DNA of 64,000 nucleotides from NCBI GenBank assembly GCA_001780725.1, contig MFIM01000001.1, forward strand, positions 19,642 to 83,641. The letters are read 5' to 3'. Source of the stretch: Candidatus Giovannonibacteria bacterium RIFCSPLOWO2_02_FULL_45_28. GTDB taxonomy: Bacteria; Patescibacteriota; Minisyncoccia; UBA11713; 2-01-FULL-45-33. The notes beneath the pieces are model-generated. The model saw only the letters and a list, made by a program, of their open reading frames with translations, did not search any database and was not told the origin of the DNA. Positions 1,274 through 33,807 of this stretch are shown piece by piece. Both the position numbers and the translations under genes were made by a program. Within the stretch, counting starts at the first letter, position 1; every line of letters begins with the position of its first letter.

Positions 1274-1351
1274 GGCCCTATCGTCTAGCCTGGTCTAGGA
1301 CACCACGCTTTCAATGTGGGAACACGGGTTCGAATCCCGTTGGGGCCACCA
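1274..1351 (+). tRNA. tRNA-Glu (anticodon UUC), CCA encoded
   Basis: GGCCCTATCGTCTAGCCTGGTCTAGGACACCACGCTTTCAATGTGGGAACACGGGTTCGAATCCCGTTGGGGCCACCA; 7-bp acceptor with one G-U; anticodon loop CTTTCAA; T-arm GGGTTCGAATCCC. Confidence 0.85.
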
Positions 1352-2849
1352 AACGAGTTTTTTCATCACGATTTTCAGAATTCCTTTTGTAAACTAAGGG
1401 AATTTCTGCGGTTTGAAACTTTGGGTAAGTATAGACCACGTTCTGCGGAAACAATATGTTTCTCAAAACCCGCAAATCAGCGACCCCCAAATCTTTCCAT
1501 GAGGTGGGCAGGGTTTTAAGGATGTTGAAAGCAAATTCAACGGCGTTTGTTATATTGATATCTTGAAATTCTGGGTTTGTTTGCTCTAGTTCTAGATTTG
1601 TAATTTGGCTTTTTATTTTTTCTTTTTCTGTAAAAAACTCATCATCAGTAAGCAAGTCTTTCACTTTCAAATTTAACAATCTTTCTTGATACATTTTTAA
1701 TTCAACAATCCTTTTTTCTATCTGTTTGTCATTTTTGATTAAATTTTCAGCCTCTTGATTGAAAGCAAATACAATAGCTTTTTCTAAAGCATCAAATTCA
1801 TCTTCATTAGGAGTTAGCTCTGACAAAAATTCTGTAAATTCTTTTTCAAATTGAATTTTATCTAACACTTTCCTTTTAGAACATTCTTTTTTAAAACAAC
1901 CATAATACTGATAATATTTATGCCTTCCTTTGGTTCTGCCACCGCTTATACTTCCTCCGCACTCACACCTGACCCCCCTTAGGGGGAAGTCGGGGTGATC
2001 TCTATTTCTAGGCATTTTTTTAGATTTGCCAGTCAAAACATCCTGTGCTTTTTGGAACAATGCTTCTGAAATCAATGGCTCGTGGTTGCCTTTTGTAGAA
2101 ACTCCCCACTCCGGCATTTCTATCCGGCCATAATAAATATGGTTTCTAAGAATCTCTCTAACCCTCTGCGGATAGATGTATTTATTATGTTTAGTTTTTA
2201 GGCTCTTAATTTTTTTCGTTAATTCACGAATACTGTATTTCCCAGTTGCATATTCTTCAAAAAGTTTTCTTATGAGCTCTGATTTCTCTGGATGAGGGAT
2301 GATGCTTTTCTTAACCCCCGCCTTATCCTTAATATTCATGTAACCAAGCGGAGCTCCCCATGCCCAATATCCGTTTTCCAAACGAGTTTTCATGCCCCCA
2401 GTAGTTCTTTCTGCGCGAACATTGTTGTCAAATTCAGCCATTCCAGAAAAAATCGCTTCCATTAATTTGCCAACAGGATCATCTGTTATGTTTTCTGTGG
2501 CGGATTGTATAGTAACGCCGTACCTTAAAAAGACTGCTTTTAATGTATAGTAAACTCCTGTGTTTCGGGAAAGTCTATCCACTTTATAAACTATTAGCTT
2601 TCCGATTTTGCCTTGCTTTACTCTACAACAATCTATCATTTTTCTTAATTCAGTACGATTTGCGGTTTTAGCAGATTCTCCCTCTTCTCTAAATATCTTT
2701 AAAACTTGGAGCTGGCTTTTATCAGCAAAAGCCTTACAAATTTTTTCTTGGCTTTCTAAACTAAAACCCTCAACCTGCTCTTTTGAGGAAACCCTGGTGT
2801 AAATAATACATGTTGGGATTTTGTTTTTAATATTTTTGTATCTTTTCAT
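1311..2849 (-). CDS. large serine recombinase (integrase) with resolvase catalytic domain, recombinase domain and C-terminal zinc ribbon
   Basis: N-terminus IIYTRVSSKEQ...KVDRLSRN (catalytic Ser motif); CECGGSISGG...YYQYYGC zinc ribbon; 512 aa. The last ~13 codons of the ORF overlap the tRNA-Glu 3' end, so the true stop is probably earlier or the overlap is a read-through artefact. Confidence 0.85.
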   Translation of the reverse strand: MKRYKNIKNKIPTCIIYTRVSSKEQVEGFSLESQEKICKAFADKSQLQVLKIFREEGESAKTANRTELRKMIDCCRVKQGKIGKLIVYKVDRLSRNTGVYYTLKAVFLRYGVTIQSATENITDDPVGKLMEAIFSGMAEFDNNVRAERTTGGMKTRLENGYWAWGAPLGYMNIKDKAGVKKSIIPHPEKSELIRKLFEEYATGKYSIRELTKKIKSLKTKHNKYIYPQRVREILRNHIYYGRIEMPEWGVSTKGNHEPLISEALFQKAQDVLTGKSKKMPRNRDHPDFPLRGVRCECGGSISGGRTKGRHKYYQYYGCFKKECSKRKVLDKIQFEKEFTEFLSELTPNEDEFDALEKAIVFAFNQEAENLIKNDKQIEKRIVELKMYQERLLNLKVKDLLTDDEFFTEKEKIKSQITNLELEQTNPEFQDINITNAVEFAFNILKTLPTSWKDLGVADLRVLRNILFPQNVVYTYPKFQTAEIPLVYKRNSENRDEKTRLVAPTGFEPVFPH

Positions 2850-2975
2850 TTGATTAAACTAATTAAACCTCTTAATCTGATAATCGCAAAATAAGAGTTT
2901 GGCTCTTAAAACGCGGATGTTGTTTTAAATGGTGTAAAACCACACTCAACCCTGCGGGGGCGGGGGAACGGCGCT

Positions 2976-3161
2976 TTAATCTTCATTTTCTTGGTCTAAT
3001 GTGCTTTCTAAGCGTTTAGAGTGTTGTTTTAAAAAGAGCCGAACCAAAAAGCTGGCGAGTTCAGCGAGTCGTTTGGCTTTTCGGTCTATTTCCTCATCTG
3101 TCCAGCTAGAATGCTGGGCTTTGAGGATTTTAAATAATTTTGGAGAATAGTCCTCTTGCAT
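2976..3161 (-). CDS. small hypothetical protein adjacent to recombinase (possible directionality factor)
   Basis: 61-aa ORF, charged and helical; no recognisable motifs. Confidence 0.15.
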   Translation of the reverse strand: MQEDYSPKLFKILKAQHSSWTDEEIDRKAKRLAELASFLVRLFLKQHSKRLESTLDQENED

Positions 3162-3658
3162 GAGCTTGGAGCCCGTGCTTTAAGCGCAAGTTTTTTCAAC
3201 AAAAAAAAGCTAACGCCACAAAAGCAATCAGGCGATTAAATTATTAATCGCATAATTACTTTTAGGCATTAGCTAGGCATTGCCTTTTGTGCCCATACAG
3301 CACCATTGCTTCTGGCTCTTTCTAAGCAATCCGGAAACTATACATTATGGGTCACCCAATGCGGAGAACTCGCTGAGTATTACCTCTTTACAAAAAGTAT
3401 TCATATGCAACTGGCCAAGGTTCAACTGTTGATATACTAGCACTATTTGTTCCCAAACACAAGCCGCCCTTATCCACAGAGAAAAAGAGTTGGGGCAAAA
3501 CTTTGTTTAAAAACAATAAAACATAAAAACTGGGGTAAAACCCATGAACCTAAAAAGTTGATTAAAATCAAAACAAGCCACAATTTTTCTTAATATCAAG
3601 ATTGATTCAATCAATTAATCAAAACTAGTTAAAAAACCAATAAACCAAACAAGGGGTT

Positions 3659-3686
3659 TGATTTTTTAACAAACTAAGGTATAATC
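3659..3686 (+). promoter_or_regulatory. sigma70-like promoter (TTGATT - 16/17 nt - TATAAT)
   Basis: ggggTTGATTttttaacaaactaaggTATAATcatg directly upstream of the structured leader. Confidence 0.4.
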
Positions 3687-3692
3687 ATGATA

Positions 3693-3888
3693 TAAAATCA
3701 TTAGAAGAGGTCTAAACACTGCTCGAAACGGTGCATGGCTCAAAAACCTGTGGCGGATACCAAACCCATCGTTTGGGAGCACCGTCACAGGTCATAGCTC
3801 GAAAGAGCTGTGGGTAGCGCAAGCTATCGCCCAGCGGTGGGTTTTGTGTTACCGAATTTTATCAGTAATTTATAAAACACAATTTTTT
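3693..3888 (+). ncRNA. structured leader or small RNA with GNRA tetraloops and a predicted pseudoknot (riboswitch-like; class not identified)
   Basis: Hairpins AGCUC-GAAA-GAGCU, UAGC-GCAA-GCUA, CCAAAC-CCAUC-GUUUGG, CCCA-GCGG-UGGG; helix CCUGUG/CACAGG enclosing GCACCGU that pairs with upstream ACGGUGC (pseudoknot); lies between the promoter and ATG 3889. Confidence 0.3.
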
Positions 3889-4260
3889 ATGGGCGCCAAC
3901 AAATCAGTCGGTAAAAATAAAACATATATTATTGGGGTGGCGGTAGCACTAATAATAGTCATTCTTGTTGGTTTTTGGTTTTTTTCTAATAGGCGAGAAA
4001 CATACAAGGGGGTTTATTACCCTGTGGGCAGCATATTTGGCAAACAAGAATATGTTTTTAGCCCGGAATTTGAAATTTTAGCAAATTGTTTCGCGTGGGC
4101 ATTGAGCATAAACAAAAAGAGGGTAGAACAAAATTTAACATCAAACATCGGTTTCCGTGATAAGGCAGATTGCGGACTAAATTGCAATTTTGAAAAAGTA
4201 TCGATGTCTTCAGAAGGGGCATCAAAAGCTTGCGACGAAACTTACGAAGTGCCACTTTAG
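3889..4260 (+). CDS. small membrane protein (N-terminal TM helix), hypothetical
   Basis: ATG at 3889 chosen within ORF 3844-4260; MGANKSVGKNKTYIIGVAVALIIVILVGFWFF. Confidence 0.35.
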   Translation: MGANKSVGKNKTYIIGVAVALIIVILVGFWFFSNRRETYKGVYYPVGSIFGKQEYVFSPEFEILANCFAWALSINKKRVEQNLTSNIGFRDKADCGLNCNFEKVSMSSEGASKACDETYEVPL

Positions 4261-4309
4261 AGTGCTACGCTTGAAAATTTCTCTGAAATGTGCGATTCTA
4301 GATTTAATT

Positions 4310-4882
4310 ATGAAAGAATTAGATGATATTTTGCAGAAATTAGCAGCCATGTTGGCTTCTATAAAAAGACTGCTTCCTGATAAGAAAACATTTTATCTCA
4401 TTTTGCTGGCACTATTTGGATCCTTTTATGTACCATGGTACATGGCCAATTTAGAAAGTAGAAATACTTTTGTACAAAATTTTTCAGTACTTGGGCAAAC
4501 TAGAATTTATCTTTCGGAAAGGCTCCATTTTAATATTATAGGCAAACAAGATCCAAAAGTTATTTCTGATTCATTGGAAGATTATAGAAAATCGGTCAAT
4601 GTATGGAATTACGAAAATCTATCAAACCCGATATTTATAGAATATTATTATGACCATGATATGAGATTGAAATTCGAAAATGAATTACTGCCAGAACTAA
4701 CAAGTTTGAACGATTCATTATATGAACTAAGAAAAAGTGGTACAACCACCGAAAACATCCCTGAAAAGATTCGTAAAATTAAGGACGTATTTTATAATCT
4801 CAATGATCAAATGATAAAATGTGCCACTTTTTATAAATTGTTATTTAGACACTGTAACAAGCCGTCTCAAAAGGGGTTTTAG
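4310..4882 (+). CDS. hypothetical protein (one TM segment), AT-rich island
   Basis: Internal ATG of ORF 4190-4882 chosen (MKELDDILQKL...); strongly AT-rich codon usage. Confidence 0.3.
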   Translation: MKELDDILQKLAAMLASIKRLLPDKKTFYLILLALFGSFYVPWYMANLESRNTFVQNFSVLGQTRIYLSERLHFNIIGKQDPKVISDSLEDYRKSVNVWNYENLSNPIFIEYYYDHDMRLKFENELLPELTSLNDSLYELRKSGTTTENIPEKIRKIKDVFYNLNDQMIKCATFYKLLFRHCNKPSQKGF

Positions 4883-4909
4883 CTTCAGAAAATTATAACC
4901 AACACCAAC

Positions 4910-5368
4910 ATGAGATCGAATAACGAAATTCAAAAAAATTCAGACAACTTATATATAGCTTTAATTAAATACGGCAAAGAAAAACTAACAGAGGGAGTTA
5001 ATTATAAAGAGGCGCAAGAACACCTTACAAAAATAGGATTTGATTTCAAAAACCCTCAAATAAGCCACTTATTCCGAGACGCATTTCTACATATTTTTGG
5101 AACAGAGCAGGAAAAAGTTAATGGATTTTACCCTGGCGTAGAACACAAAAAGTTTCTTGGCGTAGAGGCCTATTTTAATCTTCTTGACCACGAAGAGCTT
5201 CAGCACGCTCGCCAATCCTCTGCTGAAGCTAAAAAGTTGGCAATAACAGCTATTTGGATATCAGCTGGTTTGGCGTTTTTTTCAATATTGCTTTCAATAA
5301 TTCAAATTTGGCATACATCGGAAATTGAAATTACAGAGACACAATTTAACCAGCTCAAATTAAAATAA
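4910..5368 (+). CDS. hypothetical protein with C-terminal TM helix
   Basis: 152-aa ORF; C-terminal hydrophobic stretch ITAIWISAGLAFFSILLSIIQIW. Confidence 0.35.
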   Translation: MRSNNEIQKNSDNLYIALIKYGKEKLTEGVNYKEAQEHLTKIGFDFKNPQISHLFRDAFLHIFGTEQEKVNGFYPGVEHKKFLGVEAYFNLLDHEELQHARQSSAEAKKLAITAIWISAGLAFFSILLSIIQIWHTSEIEITETQFNQLKLK

Positions 5369-5369
5369 C

Positions 5370-5768
5370 ATGGTAGTTAGATATCCAGAAAAAGCAATAG
5401 AATTTTCTCCGAGCAGAACAGAAAAACAAGCGATAGAAATTGTTATGGAGTATGAAAGGAAAAATGGCAGAAAACCCGAAGAAGTCAGCAACAAAAAATG
5501 CGGTTACGACATTAAATCGGGGGACAGATTTATAGAGGTCAAGGGGCAAAAAGCCAAACAGCCCGATGTTATAGGACTCTACAAAACAACACTAAGCAAA
5601 CTCGGAGATAATATTTTACATTATTTCATTTATCTGGTTTATGATATTAAAAGTAATCCAAAGCTAAAAATACTACCGCCTGAAAAAATATTTGGAAATA
5701 TTGAAATGGAACAGCAATTTATTATACGAGGGAAGATTTTTAAAAACATACCAATAGAACAGAGCTAG
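5370..5768 (+). CDS. small PD-(D/E)xK nuclease-fold protein (DUF3883-like)
   Basis: GYDIKSGDRFIEVKG fits a D...(D/E)xK motif; 132 aa. Confidence 0.35.
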   Translation: MVVRYPEKAIEFSPSRTEKQAIEIVMEYERKNGRKPEEVSNKKCGYDIKSGDRFIEVKGQKAKQPDVIGLYKTTLSKLGDNILHYFIYLVYDIKSNPKLKILPPEKIFGNIEMEQQFIIRGKIFKNIPIEQS

Positions 5769-5842
5769 CCTGCGCCAGCAAGTATAAATATAGTATTTGA
5801 ATAACCTTAGGGGATATTGATTACGCTTGAATTTGAGCTGTT

Positions 5843-5939
5843 TTGCCTATTTTTATCCCATTCGTTAAGCTTAACTACAAGGTCAATTATTGGTTTTGAA
5901 TCCCGACCTGTTAGCTCCAAAAGTGAATTAACTAAAAAA
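5843..5939. repeat. left copy of ~90-bp direct repeat bracketing the R-M cassette
   Basis: ttgcctatttttatcccattcgttaagcttaactacaaggtcaattattggttttgaatcccgacctgttagctccaaaag... recurs at 8019-8106 with 3-4 mismatches. Confidence 0.85.
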
Positions 5940-6048
5940 ATTTGCCCAAAGCAAAAGGTGTTTCTGTGACACTTTTTTCATATTGCATCATGCTAACTAT
6001 AGTATGTAGAACCAAAGTTAGCAAGTACATATACTACAGTTATCAACC

Positions 6049-6264
6049 ATGAAACGTGAAATTTTAAATAAATTTGGTAATAAAGTCCGCGAGGAGCGGG
6101 CTAAATTAGGTTTATCACAGGAAGAATTGGCCGTACGCGCTGGAGTTCACCGAACTTATATAGGCATGATAGAACGAGCAGAAAAGAACATAACGCTTGA
6201 GAATATTCAGAAAATCTGTAAAGCACTGAACTTAAAAATTGGAGAATTTTTTGTTGATTTCTAA
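6049..6264 (+). CDS. controller (C) protein of an R-M system, XRE-family HTH
   Basis: 71 aa; LSQEELAVRAGVHRTYIGMIERAEKNITL is an HTH_XRE signature; sits immediately upstream of the putative REase; partial palindromic operator ACTATAGTATGTA ... TACATATACTACAGT upstream. Confidence 0.7.
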   Translation: MKREILNKFGNKVREERAKLGLSQEELAVRAGVHRTYIGMIERAEKNITLENIQKICKALNLKIGEFFVDF

Positions 6265-6269
6265 AAACC

Positions 6270-7076
6270 ATGTCAAAAAGCTGGAAAGAAAAAGTTAAAG
6301 AGTACTGCGAAAAATACAGCATCCCTGTTTTGTATTTGGCAGAAACTTTATACGAGCCAAAAGTTGTACCAATGATTAGGGGTAAGGCTTTTGAATTTTC
6401 TGTAATGATAGCCCTACAAGAAATTTTGTCCAAAGATGAGTGGTTAGTTGATAAGCCGATGATGAATGCACAGATTGGCTTTCACGATATTGATGTGCGC
6501 GTACTTCACAAACCAACAAACAAAATTGTTAGGGTCGAGTGTAAACTTGCCAAAAAAGGTGGGTATAGATTATTTGCTGATGGACATAGTGAAATAAGAG
6601 TTAAATGTATGCGAAGTCGCACATTGGGTCCAGCGAAAGTAAAAGAATTAGCTCCAAAATTTGGTGTCACAGAAAAAGTTTTGGCGATTCACAATGACCA
6701 ATATCTACCAGCAGATTTCGATATAGTCATCTCATCAATCGGCAATGCATTTTATACAACCGATAAAAAGACTGGTCTTTTTGAGTGGAAACCGCCACAA
6801 AAAGGGGAAGAATTTTTACAGAAAATTGGAGCCTCCGAGAAAGAGGGTTCTAAGGACTTTGCTTTCAGGACACTATTTGTTGCAAGAACCTCCGATCTTC
6901 AAATTGGCAACAATGGCGTCACTTGTACTCGTGCGAAATGTAAAAACAAAAAAGCCTGTGGTTTTATTCCCAACTATCCGGTGATCAATTTCGATAAAAA
7001 GATCAACTCTCCAAAGAATGGCTGGGTCTCGATTGAGAAATCTCTAGATCTATTTAAAAATTTTGTGCGTAAATGA
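6270..7076 (+). CDS. putative Type II restriction endonuclease
   Basis: 268 aa in C-R / convergent-M arrangement; candidate PD-(D/E)xK signature HDIDVRV...VRVECKLAKK. Confidence 0.45.
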   Translation: MSKSWKEKVKEYCEKYSIPVLYLAETLYEPKVVPMIRGKAFEFSVMIALQEILSKDEWLVDKPMMNAQIGFHDIDVRVLHKPTNKIVRVECKLAKKGGYRLFADGHSEIRVKCMRSRTLGPAKVKELAPKFGVTEKVLAIHNDQYLPADFDIVISSIGNAFYTTDKKTGLFEWKPPQKGEEFLQKIGASEKEGSKDFAFRTLFVARTSDLQIGNNGVTCTRAKCKNKKACGFIPNYPVINFDKKINSPKNGWVSIEKSLDLFKNFVRK

Positions 7077-7922
7077 TTGTGTTCGGAAAAGAGGAATCTG
7101 TTTTTCGGAATTATAGTTTACAATAAAAAGCTCGTGACCCTTATAACGAGTGCCTTTTGTGTCTGTGCCATTCTTCTGATCATCCGTACGATTTATTGTA
7201 TAATTCCATTCTTTTTCGTGCATTGCATGCACCCACTCATATAATTCTCTCACTTCCGGACTATCATCATAAGTGAGTAAAAATTTGAATCTATTTTTGT
7301 GTTTTTTGAGAATTTTGCTCAAGCGAAAATGATCATCTTGTGCGAAAGAATGGACATAAAACTTTTCCTGATCCGCATTAAAATACGGTGGGTCTATGAA
7401 CAGAAAAGAGTTGTCGGGAGCTTCTTCTATAACCCTTTCGAAGTCAAAAGAGGTTAATTTTACTTCCTGCAGTTTGACCGATGTTCTCAAGATATTTCTA
7501 GGCCAATTTTCGGGTCTCATGCTATATTTTTCTCCGTATCCCCAATAACAATTCTGCATGTTCATAATTCCAGAATAGGAAGTGCGATTTATATAAAACC
7601 ATCTGATGGCGCAATCCAGTTTGGTTTTAGGTTTATATTCATTCTTGTAATACCCGTGCCTTTCTTTTGTAGCCCGCTCATCCTTCAACCTTTTAATCAT
7701 CTGATCCGGATGGTCACGAATAATCGCTAGACAATTTATAAGATCTTTATCAATATCATTGAGCCAATTTTTACTTGCTTTATCCTTAGCAAAGAAGACA
7801 GAAGCACCGCCAGCGAATGGCTCAATGTAGTAAGTGTGCTGGGGAATATGTTCGTTTATGAGTTTGCGAGCATAAAATTTTCCTCCAGCGTATCGAAATG
7901 GTGAATTGATTTCTTGATTCAT
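7050..7922 (-). CDS. Dam-family (alpha class) N6-adenine DNA methyltransferase
   Basis: Motif I FAGGASVFF near N-terminus and motif IV DPPY (FIDPPYFNADQEKFY) near C-terminus; 290 aa. Confidence 0.85.
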   Translation of the reverse strand: MNQEINSPFRYAGGKFYARKLINEHIPQHTYYIEPFAGGASVFFAKDKASKNWLNDIDKDLINCLAIIRDHPDQMIKRLKDERATKERHGYYKNEYKPKTKLDCAIRWFYINRTSYSGIMNMQNCYWGYGEKYSMRPENWPRNILRTSVKLQEVKLTSFDFERVIEEAPDNSFLFIDPPYFNADQEKFYVHSFAQDDHFRLSKILKKHKNRFKFLLTYDDSPEVRELYEWVHAMHEKEWNYTINRTDDQKNGTDTKGTRYKGHELFIVNYNSEKQIPLFRTQSFTHKIFK

Positions 7923-8018
7923 ACTATTTTGCTAACTTTAGTATACTGGATTATGGAATTTAAACAATACATAAATAATAACATTTTTAATCTAAAATAG
8001 GCGACGAGATTGTAAAAT

Positions 8019-8106
8019 TTGCCTATTTTTGTCCCATTCGTTAAGCTTAACTACAAAGTCAATTATTGGTTTTGAATCCCGACCTGTTAGCTCCAAAAAT
8101 GAATTT
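8019..8106. repeat. right copy of ~90-bp direct repeat bracketing the R-M cassette
   Basis: Near-identical to 5843-5939. Confidence 0.85.
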
Positions 8107-8718
8107 GCCAAATATAGATTTTAAGGTTTTTTCAGGAGCTAAAAAAGCAGCCTACAAACCCAACGAGAAGATCTTGAGGAAAGAGTGAATAACATCGAAG
8201 CTCGCCTTGGATCGAATAAGTAGCTCCGCTTGAAAATTTTGTAGTGAGCTGCCAATTCAGCAAATAGCAAAAAATTCTCCAAAAACTGCACCAAAACGTC
8301 TTACGGGGATATTATTTCCGTCCCTTGCGGGTAAGTCACCATTAAGGTGCAGATGGTAAGATGGTAGATCCGAGGCTCATGATTTGCCATACAGATTGCC
8401 ATTAGCAATCTCGTAGAGGACAACGCCAGAGCAAAAAACCCTTCACTACTACTTAATATAATCTTACCATTTTAATAAAACGCGTTTGATGCAGTTTTCG
8501 GAGAACTTATATTTTAATATTATTGATAACACAATTTATTGTCAAACACCTTTGTGGATAAGTAAAGAAATGAGATTATTTGGAAAACGGTTTAAAAACA
8601 TTCTTGTAATTTAGTGCAAAAAATGAGAATCTTTAATCAATTAAAGGATTTTAAACAACGCAAGAAATAAACGGCGTATTAAAAGAATTAGTTGGTCGGT
8701 AATTAAAATTTTTCCATC

Positions 8719-32273: not shown

Positions 32274-33437
32274 TCAATTGCTCCTTATCACATCCATCAC
32301 GGCGTCGTAAGATGCATCAATTACTATCGGGTCTTTCACAAAAACTTTTTTGGCGGCATCAGGATCTTTCCATGCCGCGCCCGTTAGAGTGCAGACAATT
32401 TTGCAGCCGTCCCAAATATAAATGTCGCGCGGGATTCTCTTGATTTCTTTTATTACTCCGGCAACCGAAATTGCCGAAGACGGCTCGCAGGAAACCGGCT
32501 CCAATTCGGAAATTAACGCGTAAGCCGCCATTATTTCCTCGTCATCAGCCATATCAATTTTACCGCTTGATTCATCCCTCGCGGCTTTTGCCTCTTCCCA
32601 TTTTGCCGGATTTCCTATGCAAATTGCGCTGGCGATAGTTTTAGGATTTTCCACCGCTCTTCCTAAAACAATCGGGGCCGCGCCGACGGCCTGGTAGCCA
32701 ATCATGTGCGGGCATCTTTTGGAGCGGCCTTTTATGTAATACTCTTTATAGCCACGCCAATAAGCCGTGATGTTCCCTCCGTTCCCAACAGGAATGAAGT
32801 GATATCTTGGCGCCTCGCCCAGTTCATCCACTATTTCAAAAGCGGCGGTTTTCTGGCCTTCCGTCCTGTGTGGATTAATGGAATTGACCAGTTCTTTGTC
32901 TTTCTCTCTCAATACAACCTCTCTTACAATTTCAAGCGCCTTATCAAAATTACCTTTAATTTGTATAACTTTTGCTCCGTGACGATATGATTGGGTTAAT
33001 TTTCCCGGCGCAACATTGCCTTCCGGCAAAACAACTAAACACCTCATCCCGGCCGCTTGCGCGTACACGGCAGCAGATGCGGCCGTATTTCCGGTTGATG
33101 CGCAAATAACAACCTTTTTGCCTCTGGCGGCAGCCATGGTGATTGCGGCAGTCATACCGCGATCTTTAAAAGATCCGCTCCCGCGATTTTCTCCCTCCAG
33201 CTTCCAATAAACTTCGGAGTGAAAGTAGGGAAAAAGATCGCGAAGATAATTTTCAAAATTTTTCGCGCGCCAAAGACAGGTATTGCCCTCAAACAAAGTG
33301 ATAATTTTCTCTTTGCCCATCCACTGAATTGCAGGCGGCATCCATTCCCAATATTTATGCAGGATGCCTTTATATGGTTGCGGCAGAAATTTGTGTTTTA
33401 TCATTTCAAACTCCTCAATCCCGCCAATAGCGGACAA
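32274..33437 (-). CDS. thrC: threonine synthase (PLP-dependent, fold type II)
   Basis: GSFKDRGMTAAI (Lys-PLP motif), ...ASTGNTAASAA. Confidence 0.7.
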   Translation of the reverse strand: MSAIGGIEEFEMIKHKFLPQPYKGILHKYWEWMPPAIQWMGKEKIITLFEGNTCLWRAKNFENYLRDLFPYFHSEVYWKLEGENRGSGSFKDRGMTAAITMAAARGKKVVICASTGNTAASAAVYAQAAGMRCLVVLPEGNVAPGKLTQSYRHGAKVIQIKGNFDKALEIVREVVLREKDKELVNSINPHRTEGQKTAAFEIVDELGEAPRYHFIPVGNGGNITAYWRGYKEYYIKGRSKRCPHMIGYQAVGAAPIVLGRAVENPKTIASAICIGNPAKWEEAKAARDESSGKIDMADDEEIMAAYALISELEPVSCEPSSAISVAGVIKEIKRIPRDIYIWDGCKIVCTLTGAAWKDPDAAKKVFVKDPIVIDASYDAVMDVIRSN

Positions 33438-33471
33438 GTCTGCCCAAACTCTAGCACCGAAGAAAATAATT

Positions 33472-33807
33472 TGGAAGTGGTGGGAGTTGAACCCACGTCA
33501 GAAGAACTCGTAATCTGCGTTTGACAAGCTTAGATTTTGCCCCTGTTTACTTGCGTTGATGCAGAGCTTTTATCAACACCGCCCCGCTTATAACACCCGC
33601 GATCTCTTAGCGAGAATCAGAGACGGATGGCTTACGCTAATGCGAAAGCAAGTCCAGTGCCGCCACCAGGTTCTAGACCAAGCGCGACACGAACTTTAGA
33701 AAATAAGTTTGCACTTATTGGTTGTGCGGATGATTAAAGAGGTTAACCGTACATCCTCTGCCTGAGCGCATGATTATTTGTTCTTCCTCGAATCCAATTT
33801 CACCCCC
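33472..33807 (-). ncRNA. ssrA: tmRNA (SsrA)
   Basis: 5' GGGGGTGAAATTGGATTCGAGG...; 3' ...GACGTGGGTTCAACTCCCACCACTTCCA; acceptor GGGGGUG/CACUUCC with G3-U70; internal ORF ending ...GCTTTCGCATTAGCGTAA (AFALA-stop); adjacent to smpB. Confidence 0.85.

What the first reader, a model, noticed from the sequence alone, without database searches (positions are those of the whole stretch)
5843..8106. Type II R-M cassette (C protein, REase, Dam-like MTase) bracketed by ~90-bp direct repeats
Nearly identical ~90-bp sequences at 5843-5939 and 8019-8106 flank exactly the three-gene unit: XRE-HTH controller protein (with a partially palindromic upstream operator-like site), a 268-aa putative endonuclease, and a convergent DPPY-type N6-adenine methyltransferase. 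Direct repeats of this length around a defence cassette suggest insertion by duplication of the target, or recombination-mediated mobility of the cassette. Specificity is unknown.
Basis: seen in the sequence. Interest (0 to 1): 0.55.

Follow-up and report, generated by a model that had tools for sequence, protein, structure and literature searches.

The report
R-M cassette between duplicated island ends
An ordinary three-gene restriction-modification defence cassette sits between two copies of an 88-base sequence that is the right-hand end of a neighbouring, still-mobile integrative island inserted at a tRNA-Glu gene, so the repeats are a duplicated island junction and not a hallmark of the cassette.

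Summary
The segments 5842-5929 and 8018-8105 are 96.6% identical, occur only twice in the window, and bracket a C-controlled Type II R-M cassette (C 6049-6264, REase 6270-7076, Dam-class MTase 7050-7922).

Strain variants from the same aquifer population show a 4571-bp island (1349-5919), carrying a large serine recombinase, precisely present or absent at the 3' end of tRNA-Glu. Its right junction falls inside repeat copy 1. The repeat consists of 75 bp of island end (which encodes the recombinase's C-terminal tail in the circular form), the CCA crossover core and about 10 nt of flank. It is therefore an attR junction, and copy 2 is a duplicate of it.

The most likely history is that the R-M DNA inserted at this junction with an 88-bp target duplication, a class already described by Furuta et al. 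2010. No R-M-less empty site was found, so the order of events remains inferred. Homologous cassettes in other Parcubacteria lack such repeats and usually lie next to lexA. The recognition specificity is still unknown.

This is a new member of known kinds and of moderate to low interest.

The parts
1274..1351 (+). tRNA-Glu (UUC), the integration target. Its discriminator and CCA region (1346-1348) is the crossover core at attL.
   Evidence: ARAGORN; Rfam tRNA 59.4 bits; island-less contigs join 1348 directly to 5920.
1349..5919 (.). 4571-bp integrative island (counting one CCA core), present or absent among strains. GC is 35.6% against about 44.5% for the genome.
   Evidence: BLAST of the window against 37 strain loci; junction sequences; GC content.
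1311..2849 (-). Large serine recombinase, 512 aa in the integrated form. Its last 12 codons read antisense through tRNA-Glu. In the circular form the ORF continues in frame into 5916-5806, giving 537 aa.
   Evidence: ORF list; Resolvase and Recombinase Pfam domains on the identical protein; NCBIfam CcrB/XisF-like; in-frame circular reading; tail alignment with homologs.
3709..3828 (+). LOOT RNA, carried as island cargo; function unknown.
   Evidence: Rfam RF03000, 82.2 bits against a gathering score of 46.4.
5370..5768 (+). Last island gene, a 132-aa NOV_C (DUF3883-type) protein.
   Evidence: Pfam PF13020 E=1.6e-14; weak PADLOC TmtA/HmaA C-terminal matches.
5842..5929 (+). Repeat copy 1, the functional attR. 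It comprises 75 bp of island end (5842-5916: the attP left arm, with the recombinase C-terminal tail on the minus strand), the CCA core (5917-5919) and 10 nt of flank (5920-5929).
5930..5989 (.). Left linker with no homolog elsewhere. It contains AAAATTTGCC (5937-5946), a 10-mer that recurs at the left edge of copy 2.
   Evidence: Homology to other cassettes begins at 5990; microhomology counts.
5991..6042 (+). C-box operator region: TAACTATAGTAT (5994-6005) and the inverted ATACTACAGTTA (6031-6042). A candidate -10 hexamer, TATAGT (5998-6003), lies inside box 1.
   Evidence: Conservation in L031; promoter scan, which was not above chance.
6049..6264 (+). Controller (C) protein, 71 aa.
   Evidence: HTH_3 3e-18; PADLOC control protein 3.4e-20; closest solved structures are C.BclI 1.9e-16 and C.AhdI 7.6e-13.
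6270..7076 (+). Type II restriction endonuclease, 268 aa, starting 5 nt after the C stop codon (C-R operon).
   Evidence: PADLOC REase_II PDLC03516 6.5e-81 covering 9-266; 788 homologs; invariant D73, D75, E90, K92; AlphaFold model pLDDT 75 with an alpha-beta-beta-beta-alpha core; only weak fold hits, all to PD-(D/E)XK nucleases.
7050..7922 (-). Dam-class (alpha, D12) N6-adenine DNA methyltransferase, 290 aa, convergent with R.
   Evidence: Pfam PF02086 4.7e-35; TIGR00571 130.9 bits against a cut-off of 114.85; PADLOC MTase_II 9.9e-79; PDB relatives DpnM and Dam; motifs FAGGAS and DPPY in the translation.
7930..7944 (+). Third C-box-like site, TGCTAACTTTAGTAT, lying between a candidate M promoter and the M start codon.
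   Evidence: (I17); partly retained in L028.
7947..8017 (.). Right linker, 22.5% GC, with no homolog elsewhere.
   Evidence: Homology to other cassettes ends at 7946/7947; GC content.
8018..8105 (+). Repeat copy 2, a duplicated attR junction. It is present in every strain, including island-less ones. Its minus strand reads ELTGRDSKPIIDFVVKLNEWDKNRQ, then diverges.
8106..8718 (.). ORF-free, low-GC (34.9%) tract between copy 2 and tsaD. It has no Rfam match and is probably old acquired or decayed DNA.

Best explanation
The feature is a functional-looking, C-protein-controlled Type II restriction-modification cassette. It lies in a 7.4-kb tract of acquired low-GC DNA between tRNA-Glu(UUC) and tsaD in a Candidatus Giovannonibacteria (Parcubacteria) genome.

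How the R-M unit probably works (inferred from homology and layout). The Dam-class MTase is transcribed from its own promoter and methylates adenine in an unknown site. C and R form an operon. C binds the inverted TAACTNTAGTAT boxes upstream of its own gene to delay and then limit REase expression. A third box in the M leader probably lets C turn M down, as in Esp1396I.

What the repeats are (shown). They are two copies of the right junction (attR) of a 4571-bp island that a large serine recombinase integrates at the CCA at the 3' end of tRNA-Glu. Each copy holds 75 bp of island end, the CCA core and about 10 nt of flank. On the minus strand those 75 bp encode the recombinase's C-terminal tail as it reads in the excised circle. 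Copy 1 is the working attR, because strains that lack the island are joined exactly there. Copy 2 is a stranded duplicate.

How the arrangement arose (inferred). The R-M DNA (about 5930-8017) was inserted at the island's attR junction with duplication of about 88 bp of target. TTTGCC and AAAATTTGCC microhomologies at the edges may have been involved. This is the 'insertion with long target duplication' route already described for R-M systems. Afterwards the island kept excising through copy 1, leaving tRNA-Glu + R-M + copy 2 behind.
For: R-M identity.

Operator: the stretch holding the boxes differs at only two positions in a cassette that is 78% identical overall.

Island and att sites: nine contigs join 1348 to 5920 or 5962, and ten carry the island. 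The sequences are attB TTGGGG-CCA-AAAGTGAATT, attL TTGGGG-CCA-CCAAACGAG, attR GTTAGCT-CCA-AAAGTGAATT and copy 2 GTTAGCT-CCA-AAAATGAATT. Two independent deletion scars of 43 and 42 bp start exactly at the CCA core.

Coding nature of the repeat: the ORF continues in frame in the circular form. Most of the 120 listed homologs end in tRNA-antisense peptides, and the few with non-tRNA tails align with this tail.

Duplication and not a second integration: copy 2 matches copy 1 across the crossover into the flank (9 of 10 nt). The segment right of copy 1 resembles the attB right arm and not the island's attP right arm. No recombinase or island-gene fragments lie right of copy 1.

Foreign origin: GC is 35-37% across 1349-8718 against 44.5% for the genome. 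In sister species tRNA-Glu abuts tsaD.

Precedent: PMC2853133.
Against: No genome or contig with a single repeat copy and no cassette was found, so the insertion event and its direction are inferred, not observed.

The copies differ at 3 of 88 positions, whereas most strain contigs are 100% identical (all at least 99.3%) to the window over up to 12 kb. Either the duplication is old, or one copy came from a diverged relative.

Furuta et al. defined their class as free of other mobile elements, and here the duplicated 'target' is itself the end of a mobile element.

R-M function, the recognition site, C binding and recombinase activity are all untested. The promoter-like hits are no more frequent than in shuffles. 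The REase fold search gave no significant match.
Confidence: 0.6

Rival explanations
1. Relic of an older sibling island. The R-M cassette and copy 2 are the cargo and right end of an earlier island of the same recombinase family that integrated at tRNA-Glu and then lost its recombinase and left part. The present 4.57-kb island integrated later next to the tRNA.
For: Low GC is continuous from 1349 to 8718. An island of this family in sister species L037 (at tRNA-His) carries a DNA methylase as cargo. The 3.4% divergence between copies contrasts with a near-clonal population. Beyond the repeat edge, copy 2's minus-strand frame stays open for 8 more codons to a different stop, as a sibling recombinase tail might.
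Against: Serine-recombinase integration destroys attB, so a second island could not reuse the site unless an attB-like right arm were regenerated. The sequence right of copy 1 resembles the chromosomal flank of copy 2 (AAAGTGAATT against AAAATGAATT) and not an island left end or attP right arm, which is what a duplication predicts. No recombinase or island-gene fragments remain in 5930-8718. Homology between the copies ends abruptly inside the tail ORF.
Confidence: 0.22
2. Self-mobile cassette. The R-M unit moves as a 2.18-kb module by recombination between its two 88-bp repeats, either RecA-mediated or by the recombinase acting on copy 1 and copy 2. It would pop out as a circle carrying one repeat and re-enter wherever an island attR exists.
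For: 88 bp at 96.6% identity is long enough for homologous recombination. A circle carrying one repeat could reintegrate at any matching island end. The cassette is clearly transferred horizontally: the MTase is 86% identical between genomes whose adjacent LexA proteins are 27% identical.
Against: Every contig spanning the site, across many samples and four junction alleles, retains the cassette and copy 2. Neither deletion-product junction was found. Three homologous cassettes checked in other genomes have no flanking direct repeats of 20 nt or more. attR x attR is not a normal substrate pair for serine recombinases (established knowledge of the family).
Confidence: 0.1
3. Composite island. 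The whole of 1349-8105 is one island whose true right end is copy 2 and whose cargo includes the R-M. Copy 1 is an internal duplicate that offers a second, shorter excision option.
For: GC is uniformly low. Apart from the three mismatches (5855, 5881 and, 4 nt right of the CCA, 5923), copy 2 keeps the attP-left arm and the CCA core intact, so attL x copy 2 recombination is conceivable.
Against: The predicted product of that excision, TTGGGGCCAAAAATGAATTTGCC, is absent from the metagenome and viral collections. Only excision at copy 1 is observed. The model still needs the same duplication event to create copy 1.
Confidence: 0.08

Closest known systems
Esp1396I-type C-controlled Type II R-M systems (PMC2691842); also AhdI (PMC2275141) and BclI
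   Same: A C-R operon convergent with M, and a small HTH controller homologous to C.BclI, C.AhdI and the 3clc R-M controller protein. Inverted operator boxes lie upstream of C and an additional related box lies on the M promoter side, as described for Esp1396I, where C binds both the CR and M promoters (abstract).
   Different: The REase belongs to an uncharacterised family found mostly in Parcubacteria/Patescibacteria, with no Pfam, NCBIfam or PDB sequence match. The box sequence TAACTNTAGTAT and the 36-bp spacing between boxes are this cassette's own. The specificity is unknown, and C binding and regulation are untested.
R-M 'insertion with long target duplication' (Nobusato et al. 2000; Furuta et al. 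2010, PMC2853133)
   Same: Both R and M lie in a short insert (about 2.1 kb) flanked by direct repeats far longer than 30 bp (88 bp) that are unique in the genome. No transposase or integrase lies inside the insert.
   Different: The duplicated target is not ordinary chromosome. It is the attR junction of an active serine-recombinase island, so a mobile element is involved. The defining comparison, a related genome with one target copy and no insert, could not be found.
Large-serine-recombinase integrative elements (phiC31/Bxb1-type prophages, SCCmec CcrAB, XisF-type excision elements)
   Same: The recombinase has Resolvase and Recombinase domains and is CcrB/XisF-like. The crossover core is very short (CCA), with otherwise dissimilar attP and attB. 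Excision and integration are precise.
   Different: The target is the 3' end of a tRNA gene, and the recombinase ORF runs across attP, so integration swaps its C-terminal tail for tRNA-antisense codons. This is a family-wide trait in these Patescibacteria homologs. No directionality factor was identified.
SSV1-type integrases whose attP lies inside the int gene (from memory; not tested here)
   Same: Integration changes the integrase ORF because attP lies within it.
   Different: SSV-type enzymes are tyrosine recombinases of archaeal viruses, and integration splits the gene into two large parts. Here only the last roughly 37 codons are exchanged.

Membership tests
C-controlled Type II restriction-modification system | DNA methyltransferase with a SAM-binding motif (FxGxG) and a catalytic (D/N)PP(Y/F) motif | tested here: met
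   FAGGAS and DPPY are present in the translation. Pfam D12 class 4.7e-35. TIGR00571 Dam family scores 130.9 bits, above the 114.85 cut-off.
C-controlled Type II restriction-modification system | Adjacent restriction endonuclease with a nuclease catalytic core | tested here: inconclusive
C-controlled Type II restriction-modification system | Small HTH controller protein homologous to known C proteins, encoded just upstream of R | tested here: met
   C.BclI 1.9e-16, C.AhdI 7.6e-13 and the 3clc R-M controller protein 3.7e-08. PADLOC control protein 3.4e-20. The C stop codon is 5 nt before the R start codon.
C-controlled Type II restriction-modification system | Symmetric C-box operator upstream of the C gene | tested here: met
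   TAACTATAGTAT (5994-6005) and the inverted ATACTACAGTTA (6031-6042). The stretch holding them differs at only two positions in L031, whose cassette is 78% identical overall.
C-controlled Type II restriction-modification system | Site-specific methylation and cleavage activities; defined recognition sequence | not testable with these tools
   Palindrome avoidance was not diagnostic: TCGA and GATC are depleted. No named homolog was found.
R-M insertion with long target duplication (criteria of Furuta et al. 2010, PMC2853133) | The insert contains both R and M homologs and is shorter than 20 kb | tested here: met
   C, R and M lie within about 2.09 kb (5930-8017).
R-M insertion with long target duplication (criteria of Furuta et al. 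2010, PMC2853133) | Flanking direct repeat longer than 30 bp | tested here: met
   88 bp at 96.6% identity.
R-M insertion with long target duplication (criteria of Furuta et al. 2010, PMC2853133) | A related genome carries one copy of the target and no insert (empty site) | tested here: inconclusive
   Both predicted empty junctions gave 0 exact matches in metagenome contigs, and the island-less, R-M-less junction gave 0 in viral contigs. All contigs anchored on either flank carry the insert. The nearest species representatives are too diverged to judge (TsaD 69% identical or less).
R-M insertion with long target duplication (criteria of Furuta et al. 2010, PMC2853133) | No other mobile element involved | tested here: not met
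   The duplicated segment is the right end and attR of a serine-recombinase island.
Large-serine-recombinase integrative island (applies to 1349-5919, the source of the repeat) | Recombinase with an N-terminal resolvase domain and a Recombinase domain | tested here: met
   PF00239 and PF07508 on the identical protein; CcrB/XisF-like.
Large-serine-recombinase integrative island (applies to 1349-5919, the source of the repeat) | Precise presence/absence at a fixed site, with only a few bases of shared core | tested here: met
   Eight contigs have intact attB, eight have intact attL plus the island, and the shared core is CCA.
Large-serine-recombinase integrative island (applies to 1349-5919, the source of the repeat) | Circular intermediate with an attP junction; a recombination directionality factor | not tested
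The island-end (att) core has no match in viral contigs. The 61-aa ORF at 2976-3161 has no family match.
Island flanked by a duplicated tRNA 3' end (tyrosine-integrase style att repeats) | The direct repeat is a copy of the 3' part of the target tRNA gene | tested here: not met
   The repeat shares with tRNA-Glu only GGTT-GAATCCCG and a CCA. ARAGORN and Rfam find no tRNA in either copy. The repeat is island DNA plus flank.

The most novel reading that the evidence does not exclude
The duplicated attR gives the serine-recombinase island two alternative right ends. The recombinase could excise either the 4.57-kb core (observed) or a 6.75-kb composite that includes the R-M cassette. The duplication would then be a way for a minimal island to capture a defence cassette as cargo. 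In addition, because attP lies inside the recombinase ORF, integration swaps the enzyme's conserved C-terminal helix for tRNA-antisense codons, which might act as a built-in switch of recombination directionality.
Probability: 0.1. Interest if true: 0.6.

Novelty: new member of a known kind. Interest (0 to 1): 0.35.

Why it matters
The case shows how a small defence cassette becomes embedded in a tRNA-linked integration hotspot in a reduced Candidate Phyla Radiation genome. It also shows that long repeats flanking an R-M system can come from a neighbouring mobile element's end and need not reflect the cassette's own mobility. The natural population polymorphism (island present, absent, and two scarred alleles) defines attB, attP, attL and attR of a Patescibacteria large serine recombinase to the base, which could be useful for anyone testing these enzymes. 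The R-M system itself is ordinary apart from its uncharacterised REase family.

Tried and rejected
- **Repeat as a tRNA or tmRNA fragment or a structured RNA:** ARAGORN and Rfam find nothing in either copy at the gathering threshold or at E<=1. Similarity to tRNA-Glu is limited to the T-arm core.
- **Repeat as a dispersed element:** there are only two copies in the 64 kb, and the repeat's island-end core has no match in viral contigs.
- **Longer or gapped homology beyond the repeat edges:** not above shuffles.
- **Empty-site searches:** the junction lacking both island and R-M, and the junction with the island but no R-M, gave no match in metagenome contigs. The first also gave none in viral contigs. 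Look-ups of exact flanking proteins on both sides returned only R-M-bearing contigs. The genome-contig scan with TsaD found only distant species, 69% identical or less.
- **REase relatives in viral contigs:** none.
- **Specificity from palindrome avoidance:** TCGA and GATC are depleted, but this is not diagnostic.
- **lexA remnant next to M in the window:** none found by tblastn.
- **Remnants of a second island right of copy 1:** none.
- **Flanking repeats around homologous cassettes:** none of 20 nt or more that bracket the cassette.
- **Promoter and terminator scan:** hits no more frequent than in shuffles.
Full report
**Observation.**
The direct repeat is real. The repeat finder reports one long family, 5842-5936 and 8018-8112 (95 nt, 94%). 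The well-matched core is 88 nt (5842-5929 and 8018-8105, 85/88 identical). Sub-patterns hit only these two places in the 64-kb window, with none expected by chance, and homology ends abruptly at both edges. Three genes lie between the copies:
- a 71-aa HTH protein (6049-6264),
- a 268-aa ORF (6270-7076), starting 5 nt after the stop codon of the first,
- a convergent 290-aa methyltransferase (7050-7922, minus strand), overlapping R by 27 nt.

**Identity of the genes.**
- **MTase:** a Dam-class (D12, alpha) N6-adenine enzyme. Evidence is Pfam 4.7e-35, TIGR00571 above its cut-off, a PADLOC Type II MTase model at 9.9e-79 and DpnM and Dam as the nearest solved structures. The FAGGAS and DPPY motifs are present.
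- **HTH protein:** a genuine R-M controller. Evidence is PADLOC control protein 3.4e-20 and nearest solved structures C.BclI 1.9e-16, C.AhdI 7.6e-13 and the 3clc R-M controller protein 3.7e-08.
- **268-aa ORF:** no match in Pfam, NCBIfam or by PDB sequence, but it matches a REBASE-derived PADLOC Type II REase model end to end (6.5e-81). It has 788 homologs, mostly in Parcubacteria/Patescibacteria, some annotated only as 'restriction endonuclease'. Thirty homologs share invariant D73, D75, E90 and K92. These fall on the second and third strands of an alpha-beta-beta-beta-alpha core in an AlphaFold model (pLDDT 75). Foldseek against the PDB gave no significant hit, and the weak leaders were PD-(D/E)XK nucleases (Hjc, the R2 endonuclease, EcoT38I, SwaI). 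The nuclease fold is therefore likely but not demonstrated.

**Operator.**
Upstream of C lie TAACTATAGTAT (5994-6005) and its near inverse ATACTACAGTTA (6031-6042). The stretch holding them differs at only two positions in a cassette that is 78% identical overall (L031). A third copy, TGCTAACTTTAGTAT (7930-7944), lies between a candidate promoter and the M start codon. This layout, a C-R operon convergent with M and with C sites at both promoters, matches what is described for Esp1396I (PMC2691842). The promoter scan itself was not above chance.

**What the repeats are.**
Looking up the exact flanking and cassette proteins in public assemblies returned dozens of contigs from the same aquifer population, at least 99.3% and mostly 100% identical to the window where they align, but polymorphic upstream of the cassette.
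- Eight contigs join window position 1348 directly to 5920.
- Eight contigs carry the intervening 4571 bp with an intact left junction.
- Position 1348 is the discriminator base of tRNA-Glu(UUC) (1274-1351).
- Position 5917-5919 is a CCA inside repeat copy 1.

The intervening segment is therefore an integrative island. It encodes a large serine recombinase (1311-2849, minus strand; Resolvase and Recombinase domains, CcrB/XisF-like), a LOOT RNA and small ORFs including a NOV_C protein. The junction sequences are:

| Site | Sequence |
|---|---|
| attB | TTGGGG-CCA-AAAGTGAATTAAC |
| attL | TTGGGG-CCA-CCAAACGAG |
| attR (copy 1) | GTTAGCT-CCA-AAAGTGAATTAAC |
| copy 2 | GTTAGCT-CCA-AAAATGAATTTGCC |

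Two further alleles carry deletions of 43 bp (1349-1391, in island-bearing contigs) and 42 bp (5920-5961, in an island-less contig). Both start exactly at the CCA core, which is independent evidence that DNA is cut there.

**Why the repeat looks like coding sequence.**
The recombinase ORF runs across attL and ends in tRNA-antisense codons (...RLVAPTGFEPVFPH*). In the circularised island it continues in frame into the last 75 bp of the island, giving ...RLVELTGRDSKPIIDLVVKLNEWDKNRQNSSNSSVINIP*. Most of the 120 listed homologs end in tRNA-antisense peptides (...LVxPxGIEP...). The few with other tails align with this one; for example P0144 has TIPDSKPFVEFFCRL. Repeat copy 1 is therefore 75 bp of island end (the attP left arm and recombinase tail), the CCA core and about 10 nt of flank. 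It is an attR junction, and copy 2 is a second copy of that junction. Copy 2 is present in every strain, including those without the island.

**How the arrangement arose (inference).**
Several points argue that the attR junction was duplicated, and that there were not two independent integrations:
- Copy 2 matches copy 1 across the crossover point into the flank (9 of 10 nt).
- The DNA right of copy 1 resembles the flank of copy 2 and not the island's attP right arm.
- Serine-recombinase integration destroys attB.
- No recombinase or island-gene fragments survive to the right of copy 1.

The simplest history has three steps. The island integrated at tRNA-Glu. The R-M DNA (about 5930-8017) then inserted at the junction with an 88-bp target duplication. 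The island later excised in some lineages through copy 1.

TTTGCC occurs at all four edges. The 10-mer AAAATTTGCC, which occurs three times on the window's plus strand, sits at 5937 and at 8014. This hints at microhomology-mediated joining.

This corresponds to the 'insertion with long target duplication' class of Furuta et al. 2010 (PMC2853133), with two caveats. The target here is a mobile-element end, and the empty site that defines the class was not found. The 3.4% divergence between the copies in a near-clonal population means that either the event is old or one copy came from a diverged relative.

**Context.**
GC is 35-37% from 1349 to 8718, against about 44.5% on both sides. In sister Giovannonibacteria, tRNA-Glu(UUC) lies next to tsaD. 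All 7.4 kb between them here therefore looks acquired.

The conserved cassette core is 5990-7946, 78-80% identical at the DNA level to cassettes in other Parcubacteria. Three of those cassettes were checked for flanking repeats and have none. Of the six cassette contexts sampled, four sit immediately downstream of a lexA-like gene, a fifth lies within 1.6 kb of one, and one has none. The MTases of two such cassettes are 86% identical while the adjacent LexA proteins are 27% identical. The cassette therefore moves horizontally, and its position in this window is atypical.

**Verdict.**
The R-M system is an ordinary C-controlled Type II system with an uncharacterised REase family and unknown specificity. 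The repeats are explained as a duplicated attR of a neighbouring serine-recombinase island. This is a new member of known kinds and of moderate to low interest. The most novel reading still open is that the duplicated attR lets the island mobilise the cassette as optional cargo.

Noticed in passing
L028 10001-12302; L031 7941-10485; L034 326-2877; L118 5001-7308; L119 4782-8905; L117 5001-6659: Homologous C-R/M cassettes in other Parcubacteria lie immediately downstream of a lexA-like (LexA_DNA_bind + Peptidase_S24) gene, with lexA and M co-oriented and 22-30 nt apart, in 4 of 6 contexts. A fifth lies within 1.6 kb of lexA and one has none. The MTases of L028 and L031 are 86% identical, but the adjacent LexA proteins are only 27% identical. 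This suggests repeated horizontal arrival next to lexA, or an unrecognised functional link such as lexA-M co-transcription.
   Followed up: partly
window 3709-3828; L037 3027-3151: The LOOT RNA (Rfam RF03000, 82 and 91 bits) lies inside the serine-recombinase island in the window. In sister species L037 it lies about 3.5 kb upstream of a related recombinase integrated at tRNA-His, within a block that also encodes a DNA methylase. LOOT may be cargo of, or functionally tied to, these islands. No stated function was found in the searchable literature.
   Followed up: partly
window 1311-2849 (minus strand) and homologs P0121-P0240: A large family of Patescibacteria large serine recombinases has ORFs that end in tRNA-antisense peptides (...LVxPxGIEP/GFEP...). 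These enzymes therefore integrate at tRNA 3' ends with attP inside the recombinase ORF, so integration replaces a conserved C-terminal helix. L037 shows the same arrangement at tRNA-His (recombinase 6645-8258, overlapping the tRNA at 8247-8320).
   Followed up: partly
window 1349-1391 (absent in L002/L020/L123) and 5920-5961 (absent in L124): Two independent deletion alleles of 43 bp and 42 bp start exactly at the CCA crossover core and remove the arm to its right. One locks the island in place by damaging attL. The other damages the empty attB. They look like scars of aberrant recombinase cleavage and repair.
   Followed up: yes
window 8106-8718: A 613-bp tract between copy 2 and tsaD has no ORF of 60 aa or more, 34.9% GC and no Rfam match at E<=1. 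It contains a 24-nt inverted repeat (8272-8295 and 8485-8508, 88% complementary). In sister species tRNA-Glu sits about 50 nt from tsaD, so this tract is probably decayed acquired DNA.
   Followed up: partly
window 5370-5768: The last island gene encodes a 132-aa stand-alone NOV_C (DUF3883) domain. It matches the C-terminal regions of PADLOC TmtA and HmaA defence proteins (E=1e-11 to 3e-06), so it may be a small nuclease-like defence or anti-defence cargo.
   Followed up: no
whole window: TCGA is strongly under-represented (46 observed against 153 expected), as to a lesser degree are GGCC, GATC and ACGT. This may reflect current or past R-M systems in this genome, but it cannot be assigned to this cassette.
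   Followed up: no
window 33061-33807: ARAGORN calls two overlapping tmRNA genes on the minus strand (33061-33563, permuted type, and 33472-33807). Rfam supports only 33471-33807 (94.5 bits). The permuted call is probably spurious.
   Followed up: no
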